Below are positions 1,072 through 57,993 of a DNA stretch of 64,000 bases, one piece after another. Within the stretch, counting starts at the first letter, position 1, and each line of letters opens with the position of its first letter. The stretch covers positions 33,287 through 97,286 of the forward strand of contig JALGVJ010000013.1 in assembly GCA_029838195.1 (NCBI GenBank), written 5' to 3'. Origin of the DNA: Promethearchaeota archaeon (lineage in GTDB: Archaea > Asgardarchaeota > Lokiarchaeia > Sigyniarchaeales > SOKP01). Position numbers and translations under genes: made by a program. The notes beneath the pieces were generated by a model. The model was not told the DNA's origin. It saw only the letters and a list, made by a program, of their open reading frames with translations, and searched no databases.

Positions 1072-1492
1072 TCTTTCATCCCACCTTTAGAAACTAAGAT
1101 TTCGTTAAATAATTCATCATATATTTCTTATGGTTTCGAAAAATTAAAAATATAATGGAAATAAATTATAATTCCTAAATAATAAAAAAATCCCACCCTT
1201 TGTTGAATTTGTAATGCAACGAGGAAAAAAAGAATATTTTGATAAATTTCCTGCTTAGACAATTCCATATCACTTTATCTTGATTGAAACATCAGCTCTC
1301 ATTTTTCATTGTTTTTCTCTTTCTTTTTCCCGAAGTAATTGTATTTAAAATGGTAAATTTTTAAAAATTGCTTCCGTCTTGTTTAATTTAAGCTTTTAAT
1401 ACAAAAAATTTAACCATCATTAATTTTTTTATGAATAAAGATTTTGTGTACCAAGGTCTAAATCATACTCGGTGAAAAAACTCTTTTTTATT

Positions 1493-1897
1493 CTAAGAAC
1501 TTTCTTTTGGCTTAAATTTTAATGCGTCAGAATTCATGCAATATCGCATATTAGTAGGTGGAGGGCCATCATCAAATATATGTCCTAAATGCCCTTTACA
1601 TTTACTGCATGAGGCTTCCGTACGAATTATGCCGTGGCTATAATCCGTCTTGGTTTCTATGCTTGAGTTTTCAATAGGAGCAAAAAAACTTGGCCATCCT
1701 GTGCCCGAATCGAATTTCGTTTCAGAATCAAATAAAGGATTTCCGCATCCTGCGCAATAATATGTTCCTTTCTGGTGATTATCCCAATATTTACCGGTAA
1801 AAGGACGTTCTGTTCCTTTTTTTCTGAGAATGTAGAATTGTTCTTTGGTGAGGATTTTTTTCCAATCTTCTTCCGTTTTTTTTATAGAAGATTTCAT
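1493..1897 (-). CDS. msrB: Peptide-methionine (R)-S-oxide reductase
   Basis: GTERPFTG, CAGC, KFDSGTGWPSF, HLGHIFDDGP, RYCMNS motifs. Confidence 0.97.
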   Translation of the reverse strand: MKSSIKKTEEDWKKILTKEQFYILRKKGTERPFTGKYWDNHQKGTYYCAGCGNPLFDSETKFDSGTGWPSFFAPIENSSIETKTDYSHGIIRTEASCSKCKGHLGHIFDDGPPPTNMRYCMNSDALKFKPKESS

Positions 1898-3573: not shown

Positions 3574-3751
3574 ATATTTTACCTTTTTTCTCATAAATTA
3601 CTTATTTTCTGAACTTTATCCTCTCCCTCTCTCATTATTTTTAAAGGATGGAGGAAAATAAAAAACTTTCATGTTTTATCCCTATTATTAAATGTTTATT
3701 CTTTCTAAAAATGTAAAAATATAAAGAATTTAATTTTTTATTTATCGACGA

Positions 3752-49615: not shown

Positions 49616-49718
49616 GGGAGGATGGTCTAGCTTGGTATGATTGCACCAAGATATTACTTGATGCTATAAATCTAGGTTTGGGACCTAGGGGTCGAGGGTT
49701 CAAATCCCTCTCCTCCCA
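49616..49718 (+). tRNA. tRNA-Pro(TGG) with a 29-nt intron at position 25/26 (exons 49616-49641 and 49671-49718)
   Basis: Acceptor GGGAGGA/TCCTCCC+A; anticodon stem CTAGG/CCTAG with loop TTTGGGA; T arm GAGGG-TTCAAAT-CCCTC; spliced length 74 nt; no encoded CCA. Confidence 0.93.
49642..49670 (+). other. BHB tRNA intron
   Basis: CUUGG/CUAGG outer helix, UAUG/UAUA 4-bp helix, 3-nt bulges AU^U and AA^U, inner hairpin GCA-C-CAAG/CUUG-A-UGC. Confidence 0.9.
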
Positions 49719-52895: not shown

Positions 52896-53480
52896 ATGAA
52901 AAGAATCGTGTTCCTTCAACCCGTTGGTATTGTAGAGAGAGATATTCTAATAAAATTGAAAAAGGATTTAGAGTGGGTGTTAAAAGGATATATTAATAAA
53001 GTAAAAATTTCGCTCGAGCCTCTCGAATTAAAACATTCGGAGTATGATGCGTTTCGCAGGCAATATGATGCTTCAAAAATCTTAAAAAGAATAAAGCAGC
53101 TGCAGAGAAAAGAGAATGGATTTCGCATTTTAGGGATTATTGAGGAAGACATGTATGTAACACATTTAAATTTTGTATTCGGAATTGCCCAAAGTCCGAG
53201 AGGAATATTCATTACTTTACCTCAAGCCTGCTTGATTTCAACCACGCGATTACGAGAAAGTTTTTATCGTCGTCCTAAAAATGAGTCGTTATTTGAATTA
53301 AGAATCTTAAAAGAAGCCATTCATGAGCTCGGTCACACGTTCGGGCTTGATCATTGTCGCGAGGAATGTGTCATGCGCTTTTCTAATTGTCTTTCCGACA
53401 CGGATCTTAAACCGGCTAAATTTTGCGAGTCTTGTATCGAAATATTGAATCTTAATTTTTCTTACTTGCGAAGAGATTGA
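52896..53480 (+). CDS. amzA: Archaemetzincin (AmzA-type zinc metalloprotease)
   Basis: RRQYDA, LNFVFGIA, KEAIHELGHTFGLDHC...CVMRFSN...D.K...FCESC. Confidence 0.93.
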   Translation: MKRIVFLQPVGIVERDILIKLKKDLEWVLKGYINKVKISLEPLELKHSEYDAFRRQYDASKILKRIKQLQRKENGFRILGIIEEDMYVTHLNFVFGIAQSPRGIFITLPQACLISTTRLRESFYRRPKNESLFELRILKEAIHELGHTFGLDHCREECVMRFSNCLSDTDLKPAKFCESCIEILNLNFSYLRRD

Positions 53481-54511
53481 ATATTGTCATTATTAGGGGA
53501 ATATTTTTGGCAATATTTGGCGTATAATTCATCTGCTATTTTAAGAATCTTCTTTTTATCCCGTATTAAATCAATCAAATCGGCAGGGATTTCATTGAAT
53601 CCCTTGTATGCTCCGATTAATGAGCCACCTATCGCCGCAACCGTGTCCGTATCTCCTCCAGAGGTTGCCAGCTCGTACAAGCATCTTTTAAAAGAATCTT
53701 TAAGGCTGAGGAAAATAAAGAGGGCGCAAGCAACGGTGCTCATGGCATAAGGATGGACGAAAGCCTTTCCCATGAATTCCTCGATAAAGTATGGCTTTTT
53801 TACTCCAATTTGGGAAAATTTTATCAATCCCGCTTCAAGTGAAAGGTTCATGGCAACACTCGCATGTACTTCCTTGAGCACTTGTCGAAATTCATCTCCT
53901 ATATCATTTTGAGCATAATTTATAGAAGAGATTAACTCTTCGAATAACCTCTCAAGAGAAAAGTTCTCTTTAGGAGCTATATTAACAAGAAAAGCAATAG
54001 CTCGCGCAATGATTACTGCTCCCAATTCTCCTGCTGGATGGAGGTGCGTGATCTTACTGGATTGAATTGCTGCATTTTTCAATTCCATTAAAGATTTATT
54101 GTAAAAAAGCCCTATAGGAGCAATTCTCATGACAGTTCCATTTCCTCCCGAATGGGAAGCGGCTTGTTTCCAATCGATCCCCTGTTTTAATTTTCGAATG
54201 GAACTGTAGCATCCATAGCCAGGACCGATGGGAGGGTCTTCTAACCATTTTATGTATTCTTTAATAAACGTTTTTAAATCAAATCCATCTCCATTTATTA
54301 GTGCTTGAGCCGTATGAAGAGTGAGCTGAGTGTCGTCGGTATAAGTATTAAAAAGAAATTTATTGTTTTGGAGGAATTGTTCAAAATTAGAAAAGCGGGA
54401 TAATACATGAGCACGTGTTTGCCCTTCAAATGGGTGACCCAGAGTGTCACCTATAGCCACTCCGAACAATGTTCCTCGAAATTTATCCAGATAATCTATT
54501 TTTACTTTCAA
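53462..54511 (-). CDS. ADP-ribosylglycohydrolase family protein
   Basis: GVAIGDTLG, YTDDTQL, GNGTVMRIAPIG, GGDTDTVAAIGG. Confidence 0.94.
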   Translation of the reverse strand: MKVKIDYLDKFRGTLFGVAIGDTLGHPFEGQTRAHVLSRFSNFEQFLQNNKFLFNTYTDDTQLTLHTAQALINGDGFDLKTFIKEYIKWLEDPPIGPGYGCYSSIRKLKQGIDWKQAASHSGGNGTVMRIAPIGLFYNKSLMELKNAAIQSSKITHLHPAGELGAVIIARAIAFLVNIAPKENFSLERLFEELISSINYAQNDIGDEFRQVLKEVHASVAMNLSLEAGLIKFSQIGVKKPYFIEEFMGKAFVHPYAMSTVACALFIFLSLKDSFKRCLYELATSGGDTDTVAAIGGSLIGAYKGFNEIPADLIDLIRDKKKILKIADELYAKYCQKYSPNNDNIQSLRK

Positions 54512-54846
54512 GAGGATACTTACCTTTTTTATGGCATTATCATAATATTATCTAATTTTTTTTTGGTTGTTGATAAAATAATAGTGTATTTTCTAAATAA
54601 ATCATGTAAAAAATAACTTTTCATGCGGTGACTAGAAAGGAGGGTTTAATTTCATTGTTTTCTAATTAATCTGACATTTTTGATTTTTCATGGGTTCTTA
54701 GCTCGTGTTGAGAGATACCTCATCTTTTTTGGTAAATTCTTTTCAAGAAAAATTACCTCGATGGGGAGATCTTGAACCATAAAGTATAAGTAAAAAAGCG
54801 CATTATTTTAACAAGAAAATCATCACTAATTTTCAAGAAAGAGCAC

Positions 54847-56150
54847 GTGAGTGAAGAACCCAAAATGAATCAAATTAGGCCAAAAAAGAAAAAGTATGAT
54901 AAAGTCTTGTTGATGTATTCTGGTGGTCTTGACATTCAGAAGGGCTCCTTCTAGTGTGGACATACACCTCCTGCATGATTCGCTGGATACAAGAGACTTA
55001 TGATGCTAAAGTATACACGTTTACAGCAGACTTAGGGCAAGAATTTGCAGATCCTACGAGGTTCAAGGAAATTGAAGAAAAAGCTTATAATTTAGGGGTT
55101 GTCAAGCATTTTACTGTGGATCTAAAGGACGTATTCGTGAAGGATTATATTTTTCCCACGATAAAAGCAAATGGCTTATATCAAGGTGTCTATCCCTTGA
55201 GCACGGCTATTGGGCGTCCGCTAATTGCCATTGAGGCTGTTAAACTTGCTAAAAAAGAAGGGATTACGGTATTAGCTCATGGATGTACGGGGAAAGGAAA
55301 TGATCAGATTCGGATAAACGTGACGGTAAAAGCTCATGCTCCAGAAATGGAGATCTTACAACCGATTATCGAATGGAACATGGGACGAGATGAAGAATTA
55401 AGATACGCAGAACAGCAAGGAATTCCCATTAAAAATCAAAACAAAAAATATAGTACGGATGAAAACTTGTTTGGGCGCAGTGCAGAATGTGATGTCTTAG
55501 AAGATCCAAGCATGGAGCCACCAGAAGATTCTAAAGAATGGACTACTGCTCCAGAAAAAGCTCCTGATACCGCAGAATATATAACCATTAATTTTGAAGA
55601 AGGAGTACCGGTAGGTTTGAACGGCGAGAAAATGAATGGCGTGGACTTGTTAAGAGAATTACATGAAATCGGATGCAAGCACGGCGTTGGCAGAATTGAA
55701 CACATGGAGGATCGAGCAATTGGGTTAAAATCGAGGGAAACATATGAGGTACCAGCTGCTCTGATCCTAATTAAAGCCCACAAGGATCTTGAAAAATATG
55801 TCTGCACGAAGCATGAAAATTCTTTTAAAAATATCGTAGATCAAAGGTGGACGGAATTAGTATATGAAGGACTTTGGGTCGATCCCTTAAGAGAAGCTTT
55901 AGAAGCTTTCATAAATGAGATTAATAAAAAAGTCACGGGCAGCGTGAAAGTAAAGTTATTTAAGGGAAGCGCTGAGGTGGTAGCGCGCGAATCTCCTTTT
56001 GGTTTATATGACCTAAATTTAGCCACCTATGAGACTAAAAGTACATTTAATCAAAGACTAAGTTATGGTTTCATTCCGCTCTTTGGTCTTCAAAGTGAAA
56101 TGGGTTTTTTAGTCAAGCAAAAAATCAAGCAAGAGGAAAAGAAGAAGTGA
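54847..56150 (+). CDS. argG: Argininosuccinate synthase interrupted by a 32-nt intron-like insertion: join(54847..54931,54964..56150), 423 aa
   Basis: Upstream exon ...KYDKVLLMYSGGL joins to DTSCMIRW...; YPLSTAIGRP, AHGCTGKGNDQIR, YSTDENLFGRS, GLKSRETYE; alternative start ATG 54865. Confidence 0.93.
54932..54963 (+). other. Putative bulge-helix-bulge mRNA intron in argG
   Basis: ACATTCAGAAGGGCTCCTTCTAGTGTGGACAT; in-frame TAG at 54952; BHB-type fold whose cut sites restore GGT GGT CTT GAC ACC TCC. Confidence 0.85.
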
Positions 56151-56247
56151 TTCTTTTTCTTGCTTAATTTAAAAATATAAAAAATTTAAAAAAGATAATT
56201 ACTAATTTTATTTTTAAGCAAGAGGAAATAAAAGAGTTTAGCTTATC

Positions 56248-57147
56248 ATGTCAAAATTAGAAAAATTAAAAGGGGTCATTACCGCATTGATTACTCCTTT
56301 TAATGAGGATTTTTCCCTAAATGAAGAAAAATATCGGGAATTCATACGATTTCAAGTGGAAAATGGTTGCCAAATTTTAACCATGGGCACAACTGGAGAG
56401 TCTGCTACTTTATCTCATGAAGAGCATCATATAGCAATCGATATTGCCGTAGATGAAGCCAAAAAAACTGGTAAGGATCCGTTTGTATTAGCGGGGGCGG
56501 GCAGCAATTCTACTAAAGAAGCAATTAGTCTCAGTCAATATGCGGAAAAAGCAGGAGCCGATGCGTTGCTTCAAGTGGTACCTTATTATAACAAACCCGT
56601 TCAACATTCCTTAATTGAACATTTTTCCGCTATAGCAGATTCCGTTTCCATTCCCATCATTTTATACAACGTTCCCAGCAGGACCGTGAGAAATTTAGAC
56701 GTAGAGACCGTGATCACCCTTGCGAATAAAAAAGATAATATTGTGGGCATCAAAGAGGCAAGCGGAAATATTGATCAAATCACGAGGATTATTAAAGGAA
56801 CGCCAGATGATTTTATAGTGTTGAGTGGAGATGATGGAATGACTTATCATCTCATGGCATTGGGAGGGCACGGGGTAATTAGCGTTGCCTCCAACATTAT
56901 CCCTTTAAAAATGGTAGAATTTATTAATTCCATGAAGGAAGGAAATTGGGATAAAGCAAGAAATATGCAGCTGGAATTTTACGATCTTTTTAAAATTTTA
57001 TTCATAGAAACGAATCCGGGGCCGGTAAAATATGCTGCTGAACGTATGGGGATAATGAACATGAGAATGCGCTTGCCGTTAACCCCTCCCTTGGAGCAGA
57101 ATAGAGCAAAAATAGACAAGGTATTAAAGGAATTAAATCTCATTTAA
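56248..57147 (+). CDS. dapA: 4-hydroxy-tetrahydrodipicolinate synthase
   Basis: GTTGES, VPYYNKP, LYNVPSRT, GIKEASG, ETNPGPVK. Confidence 0.96.
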   Translation: MSKLEKLKGVITALITPFNEDFSLNEEKYREFIRFQVENGCQILTMGTTGESATLSHEEHHIAIDIAVDEAKKTGKDPFVLAGAGSNSTKEAISLSQYAEKAGADALLQVVPYYNKPVQHSLIEHFSAIADSVSIPIILYNVPSRTVRNLDVETVITLANKKDNIVGIKEASGNIDQITRIIKGTPDDFIVLSGDDGMTYHLMALGGHGVISVASNIIPLKMVEFINSMKEGNWDKARNMQLEFYDLFKILFIETNPGPVKYAAERMGIMNMRMRLPLTPPLEQNRAKIDKVLKELNLI

Positions 57148-57162
57148 ATGACCTTCTAAGAG

Positions 57163-57993
57163 GTGAATGTCATGATCAAATTGTTAATTTTCGGACCAAC
57201 GGGTTCCATGGGACGATTAATTAGTGGATTGGCTTTAGAAGACGAGGAAATTAAAGTGGTTGCAGCATGTGACGTGGCAGAAATAGGAGAAGATTTGGGG
57301 ATTGTCGTGGGAAAAAGCAACCCGGATCAGATTAAAATCAGCGACGTGAAACATCTTGAAGAAATTATTCAAGCTACAAAACCTGATGTAATGGTGGATT
57401 TTACAACAGCGAGTGCTACTGAATATAATTCAAAAATTTGTATCAACCATCAAGTTCGATGTGTCATAGGAACTACAGGACTATCTGATGGATATCTGAA
57501 AGAATTAGATGAGCTAATAAAAAAAAACCGATGCCCGTGTGTCTTATCTTCAAATATGGCAACAGGTACCAATATTTTTTTCAAAATAGCTTCCCTTTTA
57601 GCTACTTATTTATCGGACTGGGACATTGAAATAATTGAAGCACATCATCACCGTAAAGTGGATGCTCCAAGCGGAACGGCTTTAACGGTGGGGAAATTGA
57701 TTTCAGAAGCCTTAAACGTAAATTTCGAGGAAGTTGCTAAATTTGGCAGGGATAAAGGTCCGAATAAACGAAAAATTGGAGCAAAACAAGAAATTGGAAT
57801 TCATTCAATTCGAGCAGGCGATATTGTAGGAGATCACGTGATAATATTTGCTGGTCCTGGCGAGCGTATTGAATTAAAGCATCAAGCCCATAGTAGAAAT
57901 TGTTTTGCTACAGGTGCCATTAAAGCCATTAAATTCATACAGAATGCCACGGAAAATAAAATTTATTCCATGACCGAAGTTTTAAATTTATAA
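57163..57993 (+). CDS. dapB: 4-hydroxy-tetrahydrodipicolinate reductase
   Basis: G.TGSMG, VDFT, VIGTTG, EAHHHRKVDAPSGTA, IRAGDIVGDH. Confidence 0.96.
   Translation: MNVMIKLLIFGPTGSMGRLISGLALEDEEIKVVAACDVAEIGEDLGIVVGKSNPDQIKISDVKHLEEIIQATKPDVMVDFTTASATEYNSKICINHQVRCVIGTTGLSDGYLKELDELIKKNRCPCVLSSNMATGTNIFFKIASLLATYLSDWDIEIIEAHHHRKVDAPSGTALTVGKLISEALNVNFEEVAKFGRDKGPNKRKIGAKQEIGIHSIRAGDIVGDHVIIFAGPGERIELKHQAHSRNCFATGAIKAIKFIQNATENKIYSMTEVLNL

What the first reader, a model, noticed from the sequence alone, without database searches (positions are those of the whole stretch)
54922..54968. Candidate bulge-helix-bulge (tRNA-type) intron inside the protein-coding gene argG of an Asgard-like archaeon
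Seen: the ORF track starts ArgG at a spurious GTG (54954), but the true N-terminus (MSEEPKMNQIRPKKKKYDKVLLMYSGGLD) lies upstream in another frame and hits TAG at 54952. The conserved ATP-binding motif YSGGLDTS is split by exactly 32 nt, and the rest of the gene shows no stop or frameshift. The RNA folds as outer helix GGUG(54922-25)/CACC(54965-68), 3-nt bulge AUA(54962-64), 4-bp central helix GUCU(54926-29)/GGAC(54958-61), bulge UGA(54930-32), then the inner hairpin CAUU-C-AGAAGG-gcu-CCUUCU-AGUG. A54932 can alternatively pair with U54957, so the 5' side is a relaxed BHB/BHL form. Established: archaeal tRNA-splicing endonuclease (EndA) cuts after the second nucleotide of each bulge. Applying that rule (UG^A, AU^A) gives CUUG+ACACC = CTT GAC ACC = L-D-T, restoring motif and frame with no free parameters. 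BHB introns in archaeal mRNA are, to my knowledge, well documented mainly for crenarchaeal cbf5. Inference: this organism splices an mRNA with the EndA/RtcB machinery, so arginine synthesis would depend on splicing and might be regulated by it, conceptually like eukaryotic HAC1/XBP1 non-spliceosomal splicing. Other Asgard genes annotated as truncated may hide similar introns.
Basis: partly seen in the sequence, partly recalled or inferred. Interest (0 to 1): 0.95.

Follow-up and report, generated by a model that had tools for sequence, protein, structure and literature searches.

The report
tRNA-type mini-intron splitting Asgard argG
The only argininosuccinate synthase gene of this Asgard archaeon is broken inside its ATP-binding motif by a 32-base insert shaped like an archaeal tRNA intron, and relatives carry a similar insert at the same nucleotide, so the mRNA very probably has to be cut and rejoined by the tRNA-splicing enzymes.

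Summary
argG (window 54865-56150, +) is interrupted by 32 nt (54932-54963). Removing them restores YSGGLDTS and the reading frame.

- outer helix GGUG/CACC
- 4-bp central helix GUCU/GGAC
- 3' bulge AUA
- a relaxed 5' bulge
- an inner hairpin

Comparative evidence supports an intron rather than a broken gene:
- Six related genomes in four other genera, plus three further metagenome contigs, carry a 30-nt insert at exactly the same nucleotide. Its BHB is cleaner and shows compensatory changes.
- These genes are under strong purifying selection (dN/dS 0.06-0.08 between intron-bearing copies).

The genome has:
- one argG and an intact argH
- a crenarchaeal-type EndA pair and RtcB
- a tRNA-Pro with a 29-nt BHB intron 5 kb upstream
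- at least four other genes split by 30-31-nt BHB-like inserts

Best reading: an EndA/RtcB-spliced pre-mRNA intron, the kind documented in print only for crenarchaeal cbf5 in the papers I could search. Splicing was not observed, because no RNA run was listed. The proposed regulatory role is untested.

This scan had already reported the 30-nt argG intron in other genomes, and other mRNA introns in this genome. New here: the 32-nt insert is unrelated in sequence to the 30-nt family, although it sits at the same site.

The parts
54865..54931 (+). argG exon 1: 22 codons (MNQIRPKKKKYDKVLLMYSGGL) plus the G of the Asp codon. An upstream in-frame GTG at 54847 is an alternative start.
   Evidence: The N-terminus matches relatives, which read MNQLGPKK.KYDKILLMYSGGL.
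54932..54963 (+). 32-nt BHB-type intron. The placement is ambiguous up to 54935-54966 because ACA is repeated at both borders. It carries the TAG (54952-54) that closes the exon-1 frame and the spurious GTG (54954).
   Evidence: It is single copy in the genome.
54964..56150 (+). argG exon 2: AC of the Asp codon, then TSCMIRW... and 394 codons to the stop at 56148-56150.
   Evidence: Pfam Arginosuc_synth (profile positions 12-162) and Arginosuc_syn_C match. It is 86% identical to the uninterrupted same-genus ortholog over residues 23-416, with no stop or shift.
54922..54925 (+). Outer (exon-exon) helix, 5' strand GGUG. It pairs with CACC at 54965-54968.
   Evidence: 4 of 4 pairs.
54926..54929 (+). 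Central 4-bp helix, exon strand GUCU. It pairs with the intron strand GGAC at 54958-54961.
   Evidence: It is paired in 7 of 7 genomes, with two pairs changed on both sides relative to the 30-nt family.
54930..54932 (+). 5' bulge UGA, with the predicted cut UG^A. The motif is relaxed here: U54957 lies opposite, so this is either a 3x1 internal loop or a 2-nt bulge with A54932-U54957 paired.
54933..54957 (+). Inner intron hairpin: CAUU-c-AGAAGG, loop GCU, CCUUCU-AGUG, then the unpaired U.
54958..54961 (+). Central helix, intron strand GGAC.
54962..54964 (+). 3' bulge AUA, with the predicted cut AU^A.
54965..54968 (+). Outer helix, 3' strand CACC.

Best explanation
The 32 nt at 54932-54963 are an archaeal bulge-helix-bulge intron inside the argG pre-mRNA. 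The transcript folds so that exon codons GGU-GGU-CUU-G pair partly with downstream exon (CACC) and partly with the 3' end of the intron (GGAC). This presents two bulges four base pairs apart. The heterotetramer-type splicing endonuclease EndA cuts after the second nucleotide of each bulge (UG^A and AU^A). RtcB then joins the exons to give ...GGU CUU G|AC ACC..., which restores the Asp codon of the PP-loop motif SGGLDTS and the frame of a 417-aa argininosuccinate synthase. Shown here: the geometry, its conservation and covariation at the same site in relatives, selection on the host gene, and presence of the enzymes. Inferred: the cleavage and ligation themselves. The intron is most likely a tolerated, sporadically lost or gained element rather than a regulator.
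For: (1) The geometry and frame restoration are present in the sequence.
(2) The site is shared. Of 55 argG-bearing genomes in the class (161 searched) and 78 in the phylum sample (400 searched), 7 have an insert, all in one family and five genera. In every case it sits between G and A of the same Asp codon. Four of 13 full metagenome loci also have it, one of them the same sequence as genome G052.
(3) The 30-nt family is a textbook hBHBh' motif, with bulges of 3 nt each, a 4-bp central helix and a 9-bp inner helix. 95.7% of cells are paired, against 58% or less when the register is slid. Four pairs show double-sided changes and the central helix is 100% paired.
(4) Including the window, the central helix covaries with synonymous exon codons: GUCU/GGAC versus GAUU/GAUC, GAUU/AAUC and GGUU/GAUU.
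(5) Splicing gives L-D-T-S in all cases.
(6) dN/dS is 0.06-0.08 between intron-bearing genes and 0.039 for the window against its intronless congener. No other stop or frameshift occurs.
(7) There is one argG in a genome that is 96.6% complete, and argH is intact.
(8) An EndA catalytic paralog retains the Tyr, His and Lys of the catalytic triad as I read them in its sequence. Its best solved relatives are chains 3p1z_B and 3ajv_B (E 6e-36). A second paralog lacks the His, and RtcB is present. PMC5829648 states that Asgard archaea have (alpha-beta)2 EndA with the loop that confers broad specificity for relaxed motifs.
(9) The same genome shows comparable cases. tRNA-Pro(TGG) at 49616-49718 is found by ARAGORN only after a 29-nt BHB intron is excised. 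moxR, elp3, rnhB and an E2 gene are each split inside a Pfam domain or motif by 30-31-nt BHB-like inserts.
Against: There is no RNA evidence. In this genome the 5' side is relaxed (U54957 lies opposite the bulge) and the fold energy is not exceptional (z = -1.34). The 32-nt sequence is unique to this genome: the same-genus relative and the closest metagenome contigs (84% identity) lack any insert. The covariation evidence therefore comes mostly from the unrelated 30-nt family. A very recent insertion cannot be excluded by dN/dS, because dS to the nearest relative is saturated (2.17). My homology-free scan of the genome for strict BHB sites that join open frames gave little excess over decoy registers (410 against 350-373). 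The count of such introns in this genome is therefore not established.
Confidence: 0.83

Rival explanations
1. A fresh pseudogene: a recent 32-nt insertion has inactivated argG in this lineage, and the BHB resemblance is fortuitous.
For: The 32-nt sequence is found only in this genome. The 5' side of the motif is imperfect and the fold is not unusually stable. Many relatives in the family lack argG altogether, so the gene is dispensable in some lineages (argG was found in 39 of 134 family genomes besides the window's own).
Against: The insertion lies at the very nucleotide used by the 30-nt introns in four other genera. Canonical cut positions restore the frame and the essential Asp. Only 0.14% of intron shuffles keep the central and inner helices in register, and the outer helix is 4 of 4. 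The remaining 1.2 kb has no defect, and argH is intact. Four other conserved genes in the same genome have the same kind of insert.
Confidence: 0.08
2. An assembly or sequencing artefact that created the 32-nt insert.
For: The genome is a metagenome-assembled bin with 7.9% contamination.
Against: An independently built Logan contig from run X2 spans 54810-55243 with zero differences, although X2 may be the source sample. Analogous inserts occur in ten independent assemblies of relatives.
Confidence: 0.02
3. The insert stays in the mRNA and is dealt with at translation, either by ribosomal bypassing of the T4 gene 60 type or by producing two separate polypeptides.
For: An in-frame stop lies within or just after the insert in all cases, and a hairpin follows the break. 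This is superficially like a bypass element.
Against: No matching take-off and landing codons restore the frame. GAC occurs at 54931-33 and 54959-61, but landing there gives the wrong frame. In the 30-nt family no intact GAC or GAT codon exists downstream, so the invariant Asp of SGGLDTS can only be made by joining G to AC. A 22-residue peptide plus a protein lacking half its PP-loop is not a plausible enzyme.
Confidence: 0.02
4. A DNA-level mobile element (a miniature transposon or similar) that is excised or tolerated by another route.
For: Presence is patchy among close relatives, needing at least 5 changes on the gene tree.
Against: The insert is single copy in the genome, with no related copies at blastn-short sensitivity. 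The only repeat at its borders is the 3-nt ACA (1 nt in the 30-nt family), and its arms pair with the exon rather than with each other. 30-32 nt is too short to encode anything. The conserved features are exactly those of an EndA substrate.
Confidence: 0.03

Closest known systems
BHB intron of the cbf5 (pseudouridine synthase) pre-mRNA in Crenarchaeota (Desulfurococcales, Sulfolobales); PMC2738675 and the references in it
   Same: A short protein-free intron inside a protein-coding gene, bounded by a BHB motif that is often relaxed. The organisms have a hetero-oligomeric EndA of broad specificity. The intron is present or lost by lineage among close relatives, and genome annotation mis-calls the gene.
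   Different: The host gene (argG), the phylum (Asgard/Promethearchaeota) and the position (inside the PP-loop ATP-binding motif) all differ. Two unrelated intron sequences (30 nt and 32 nt) occupy the identical site in different genera. It is one of several such split genes in the same genome. Splicing of cbf5 was shown experimentally, whereas here it is inferred.
Non-canonical BHB introns of archaeal tRNA genes, abundant in Asgard archaea (PMC11291895; bioRxiv 10.64898/2026.10.13.758758)
   Same: Same size class and architecture: 1 nt, then a hairpin of 8-10 bp, then a 4-nt central strand, then 2 nt. The tRNA-Pro intron 5 kb upstream in this window is 29 nt and built the same way. The same enzymes are expected to act.
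   Different: The host is an mRNA. The exon part of the motif is therefore made of codons (Gly-Gly-Leu / Asp-Thr) and is constrained by the protein, and no mature tRNA body can help recognition.
HAC1/XBP1 unconventional cytoplasmic splicing in eukaryotes
   Same: A non-spliceosomal, protein-catalysed cut in two small loops of an mRNA, followed by ligation with a tRNA ligase (RtcB in metazoa). The splice restores or changes the reading frame.
   Different: The nuclease is IRE1, not the tRNA endonuclease. The recognised structure is a pair of 7-nt loops, not a BHB. That splicing is a regulated stress switch, and no regulation is indicated here.

Membership tests
Archaeal BHB intron (EndA substrate) | A 4-bp central helix between the two cleavage sites | tested here: met
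   GUCU/GGAC in the window. It is paired in 7 of 7 genomes and 9 of 9 members of the 30-nt family, in register only.
Archaeal BHB intron (EndA substrate) | A 3-nt bulge at the 3' splice site flanked by an outer helix | tested here: met
   AUA 54962-64, followed by CACC paired with GGUG at 4 of 4 positions.
Archaeal BHB intron (EndA substrate) | A 3-nt bulge at the 5' splice site flanked by an inner helix | tested here: inconclusive
   The window has UGA with U54957 opposite, giving a 3x1 loop or a 2-nt bulge, which is a relaxed form. The feature is strictly met in the 30-nt family of relatives (AGA or GGA bulge with a 9-bp inner helix). PMC5829648 says relaxed forms are cut by (alpha-beta)2 EndA.
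Archaeal BHB intron (EndA substrate) | Cuts after the second bulge nucleotide give a functional product | tested here: met
   The product is L-D-T-S with the frame restored in all 7 genomes and the 4 metagenome loci. The cut rule itself comes from my own knowledge of EndA structural work, not from a paper read here.
Archaeal BHB intron (EndA substrate) | Splicing endonuclease and RNA ligase encoded by the organism | tested here: met
   PF01974 gives two full-length paralogs plus a fragment, and PF01139 gives RtcB at 553 bits. The catalytic paralog resembles chains 3p1z_B and 3ajv_B.
Archaeal BHB intron (EndA substrate) | The intron is actually excised from RNA (spliced junction, free or circular intron) | not testable with these tools
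   No RNA run is listed for this stretch.
Pre-mRNA BHB intron (cbf5-like) | The host gene stays functional (purifying selection, no other lesions) | tested here: met
   dN/dS is 0.06-0.08 among intron-bearing genes and 0.039 for the window against G001. Alignment to the intronless ortholog is contiguous.
Argininosuccinate synthase (ArgG) | Both Pfam domains and the PP-loop SGGxDT/S motif | tested here: met
   PF00764 E 4e-52 and PF20979 E 5e-86 on exon 2. The motif is complete only after the 32 nt are removed.
Programmed translational bypass (T4 gene 60 type) | Matched take-off and landing codons that restore the frame | tested here: not met
   The GAC...GAC pair lands out of frame. The 30-nt family has no downstream Asp codon.
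Miniature transposable element | Multiple copies in the genome | tested here: not met
   Single copy; blastn-short against the whole genome finds only chance matches of 17 nt or less. Terminal inverted repeats and target-site duplication were not searched for separately; from the sequence, the only border repeat is ACA.

The most novel reading that the evidence does not exclude
In this family of Asgard archaea, EndA-dependent introns are an active, recurring feature of protein-coding genes rather than a single relic. The same argG nucleotide carries two unrelated intron sequences (30 nt in four genera, 32 nt here), and presence needs at least 5 changes on the gene tree. This would mean repeated insertion into a structurally permissive site (a Gly-codon-rich exon able to form the BHB helices), or intron replacement, together with frequent precise loss. 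It would be a working intron gain and loss cycle for mRNAs in the closest prokaryotic relatives of eukaryotes.
Probability: 0.3. Interest if true: 0.9.

Novelty: new member of a known kind. Interest (0 to 1): 0.74.

Why it matters
In the papers I could search, protein-catalysed splicing of an archaeal mRNA is documented for a single gene, cbf5, in Crenarchaeota. Here a biosynthetic gene of an Asgard archaeon, and several other genes in the same genome, appear to need the tRNA-splicing machinery to be translated at all. If RNA data confirm this, three things follow. Some Asgard archaea would be shown to process interrupted mRNAs routinely. Gene calls in these genomes would be shown to be systematically wrong at such sites, giving truncated or split genes and false metabolic gaps. 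And intron gain and loss in protein genes of the lineage closest to eukaryotes would become directly testable. No evolutionary link to spliceosomal introns is implied by this evidence.

Tried and rejected
RNA evidence: no RNA holder was listed for window 54300-56300, so splicing could not be observed. Only DNA contigs could be laid.

Fold stability as a criterion: the z-score of -1.34 is not informative.

Homology-free genome scan: I looked for strict BHB geometry that joins two open frames.
- With 40-50 open codons on each side it is swamped by chance hits: 1155 against 1115-1182 in decoy registers, and 3758 against 3622-3711 without an outer-helix requirement.
- With at least 80 codons on each side there is only a small excess (410 against 350-373).
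- It recovers elp3 and the E2 gene. It misses argG, moxR and rnhB because their motifs are relaxed or lie near the gene start.
- It is therefore not a usable census.

ARAGORN on the raw window finds no tRNA. The tRNA-Pro appears only after its intron is removed.

The metagenome search for more copies of the 32-nt type found none, only four loci of the 30-nt type.

The phylum-wide search found no argG insert outside the one family. Stops flagged in G005, G154 and similar matches are read-through of the normal C-terminal stop.

Translational bypass, a split protein, a mobile element and an assembly error were considered and rejected, as set out under the rival explanations.

Literature searches found no paper reporting BHB introns in Asgard protein-coding genes. 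This covers open-access papers and bioRxiv only.

Full report
**What is in the sequence**

On the plus strand an open frame starts at GTG 54847. The more likely start is ATG 54865, by comparison with relatives that begin MNQLGPKK.KYDKILLMYSGGLDTS. The frame reads ...KVLLMYSGGL and then runs into TAG at 54952-54954. The long ArgG frame is called from a GTG at 54954 and ends at 56150. From 54966 it reads TSCMIRW... and carries both ArgG Pfam domains. The N-terminal domain match starts only at profile position 12.

Removing 54932-54963 (32 nt) joins CTT G to AC ACC. This gives L-D-T and rebuilds the PP-loop motif YSGGLDTS in frame. ACA is repeated at both borders, so four placements of the deletion give the same product.

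**The fold**

The RNAfold MFE of 54915-54975 contains the elements described:
- outer helix GGUG/CACC
- central helix GUCU/GGAC
- 3' bulge AUA
- an inner hairpin (CAUU-c-AGAAGG, loop GCU, CCUUCU-AGUG)

On the 5' side A54932 pairs with U54957. The 5' bulge is therefore 2 nt, or else 3 nt with one opposing U. This is a relaxed motif.

The energy is not unusual (z = -1.34). The geometry is less likely by chance. Only 0.14% of shuffles of the 32 nt keep a 4/4 central helix in the canonical register together with an inner helix of at least 4 bp. The exon-exon outer helix is 4/4 as well.

A Logan contig of DNA run X2 covers 54810-55243 without a difference. This may be the source sample, so it counts only against an assembler artefact. 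The stronger argument is the relatives.

**Relatives**

I searched with the uninterrupted same-genus ortholog.
- 55 of 161 genomes of the class have argG, as do 78 of 400 in the phylum sample.
- Seven have an insert, all in one family and spread over five genera. In every case it lies between the G and the A of the same Asp codon.
- Six of these carry a 30-nt insert. It is in frame but always holds one or two stop codons.
- Four of 13 full-length JGI metagenome loci carry the 30-nt insert too, one of them identical to genome G052.

The 30-nt inserts form a canonical motif. The bulges are AGA (GGA in one) on the 5' side and AAA, AUA or AGA on the 3' side. The central helix is GAUU/GAUC (or AAUC, GAUU), and the inner helix has 9 bp around a 5-nt loop. 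In three sequences the outer helix is a perfect GGUG/CACC.

On nine distinct sequences:
- 95.7% of cells are paired, against 22-58% when the 3' partners are slid.
- The central helix is 100% paired.
- Four inner-helix pairs show changes on both sides.

When the window's sequence is added, the central helix still pairs in all genomes. Two of its pairs are changed on both sides (U-A to A-U and C-G to U-A), following the synonymous choice of the Gly and Leu codons. Splicing by the same rule yields L-D-T-S everywhere.

**The host genes are alive**

Apart from the insert, none of the interrupted genes has a stop or frameshift. dN/dS values:

| Comparison | dN/dS | dS |
|---|---|---|
| Three intron-bearing genes of one genus, against each other | 0.06-0.08 | 0.12-0.16 |
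| Intron-bearing genes against their intronless neighbours | 0.04-0.07 | 0.6-2.2 |
| The window against its intronless congener | 0.039 | 2.17 |

The window's genome is 96.6% complete and has a single argG. It has an intact argH, scoring 448 bits against a cut-off of 279.5.

**The machinery**

The genome encodes two full-length EndA paralogs.
- One (202 aa) keeps the Tyr, His and Lys of the catalytic triad as I read them in the ORF translation. Its closest solved relatives are chains 3p1z_B and 3ajv_B (E 6e-36). From memory these are the catalytic subunit of the Aeropyrum pernix heterotetramer. The aligned ..KPR.. segment matches the region where the crenarchaeal specific loop lies.
- The other (199 aa) has lost the His.

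A truncated third copy and RtcB are also present. PMC5829648 reports that Asgard archaea have the (alpha-beta)2 enzyme with the L1 loop, and that only this type and the epsilon2 type cut relaxed motifs.

**Context in the same genome**

- Five kb upstream in the window, tRNA-Pro(TGG) at 49616-49718 is invisible to ARAGORN until a 29-nt insert (49642-49670) with the same architecture is removed.
- ARAGORN finds 36 tRNA genes in the genome, 23 of them with introns.
- Following leads from earlier notes of this scan, I located four other split genes and checked them myself:
  - moxR: 30 nt between GGHGGGK and TT.
  - elp3: 31 nt, with 161 and 390 open codons on either side.
  - rnhB: 30 nt inside GIDEAG-R-GS.
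  - a ubiquitin-conjugating E2: 31 nt, with Pfam UQ_con profile positions 21-62 on one side and 68-139 on the other.

**Gain or loss**

On an argG tree of 44 sequences, intron presence needs at least five changes. If the intron was gained only once, about 15 losses are needed by my count on that tree.

The 30-nt introns of four genera resemble each other although synonymous sites between those genera are saturated. The window's 32-nt intron has no similarity to them beyond structure. Its congener and the nearest metagenome contigs have no intron. It is also single copy in the genome. I cannot decide between fast divergence, replacement and independent insertion at a permissive site.

**Rivals**

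- A fresh pseudogene is the only serious rival for this particular genome. It would have to hit by chance the exact nucleotide used by the introns of relatives, with canonical cut sites.
- Translational bypass fails because no codon pair restores the frame, and in the 30-nt family the Asp codon exists only after joining.
- A mobile DNA element fails on copy number and the absence of a target-site duplication.

**What is known**

The searches returned cbf5 of Crenarchaeota as the documented archaeal pre-mRNA BHB intron. It has a relaxed motif and lineage-specific loss (PMC2738675). They also returned recent work on the abundance of tRNA introns in Asgard archaea (PMC11291895; bioRxiv 10.64898/2026.10.13.758758). 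They returned nothing on Asgard protein-coding genes.

This scan had already followed up the 30-nt argG intron in other genomes, and other mRNA introns in this genome. I found the 30-nt family independently before reading those notes.

**Verdict**

The regulatory idea is untested and, given the patchy distribution, unlikely. This is a new member of a known kind.

Noticed in passing
window 49616-49718 (+): tRNA-Pro(TGG) is interrupted by a 29-nt BHB intron (49642-49670) at a non-canonical position between the D arm and the anticodon stem. ARAGORN finds no tRNA in the raw window, but finds a 74-nt tRNA-Pro once the 29 nt are removed.
   Followed up: yes
G000 contig C23 (loci L058, L059) and C72 (loci L057, L060): Four further protein genes are split by 30-31-nt BHB-like inserts inside conserved motifs or Pfam domains: elp3, rnhB (about 5 kb from elp3 on the same contig), a MoxR-type AAA ATPase (Walker A) and a ubiquitin-conjugating E2.
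   Followed up: partly
L005, L013, L028-L031, L064, L068, L071 (argG of relatives): All 30-nt argG introns are in frame, yet every one carries one or two in-frame stop codons (TGA or TAA). Unspliced mRNA can therefore never give a full-length protein with 10 extra residues in the PP-loop. Whether this is selected or just reflects AU-richness was not tested.
   Followed up: no
L037 (G000 contig C53, locus 1492-1812, minus strand): A truncated 106-aa copy of the beta-like EndA paralog, nearly identical to part of the full copy on C8. It may reflect strain heterogeneity or contamination in the bin (7.9% contamination).
   Followed up: no
family-wide: argG itself is patchy in the family. It was found in 6 of 54 genomes of one genus and 4 of 42 of another, including genomes that are 99-100% complete. 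Arginine biosynthesis therefore seems dispensable in many relatives.
   Followed up: no
window 56248-57993 (+): dapA- and dapB-like ORFs (299 and 276 aa) follow argG on the same strand. An ADP-ribosylglycohydrolase-like ORF (53462-54511) lies upstream on the minus strand. These assignments are by eye from the translations, not by a family search.
   Followed up: no
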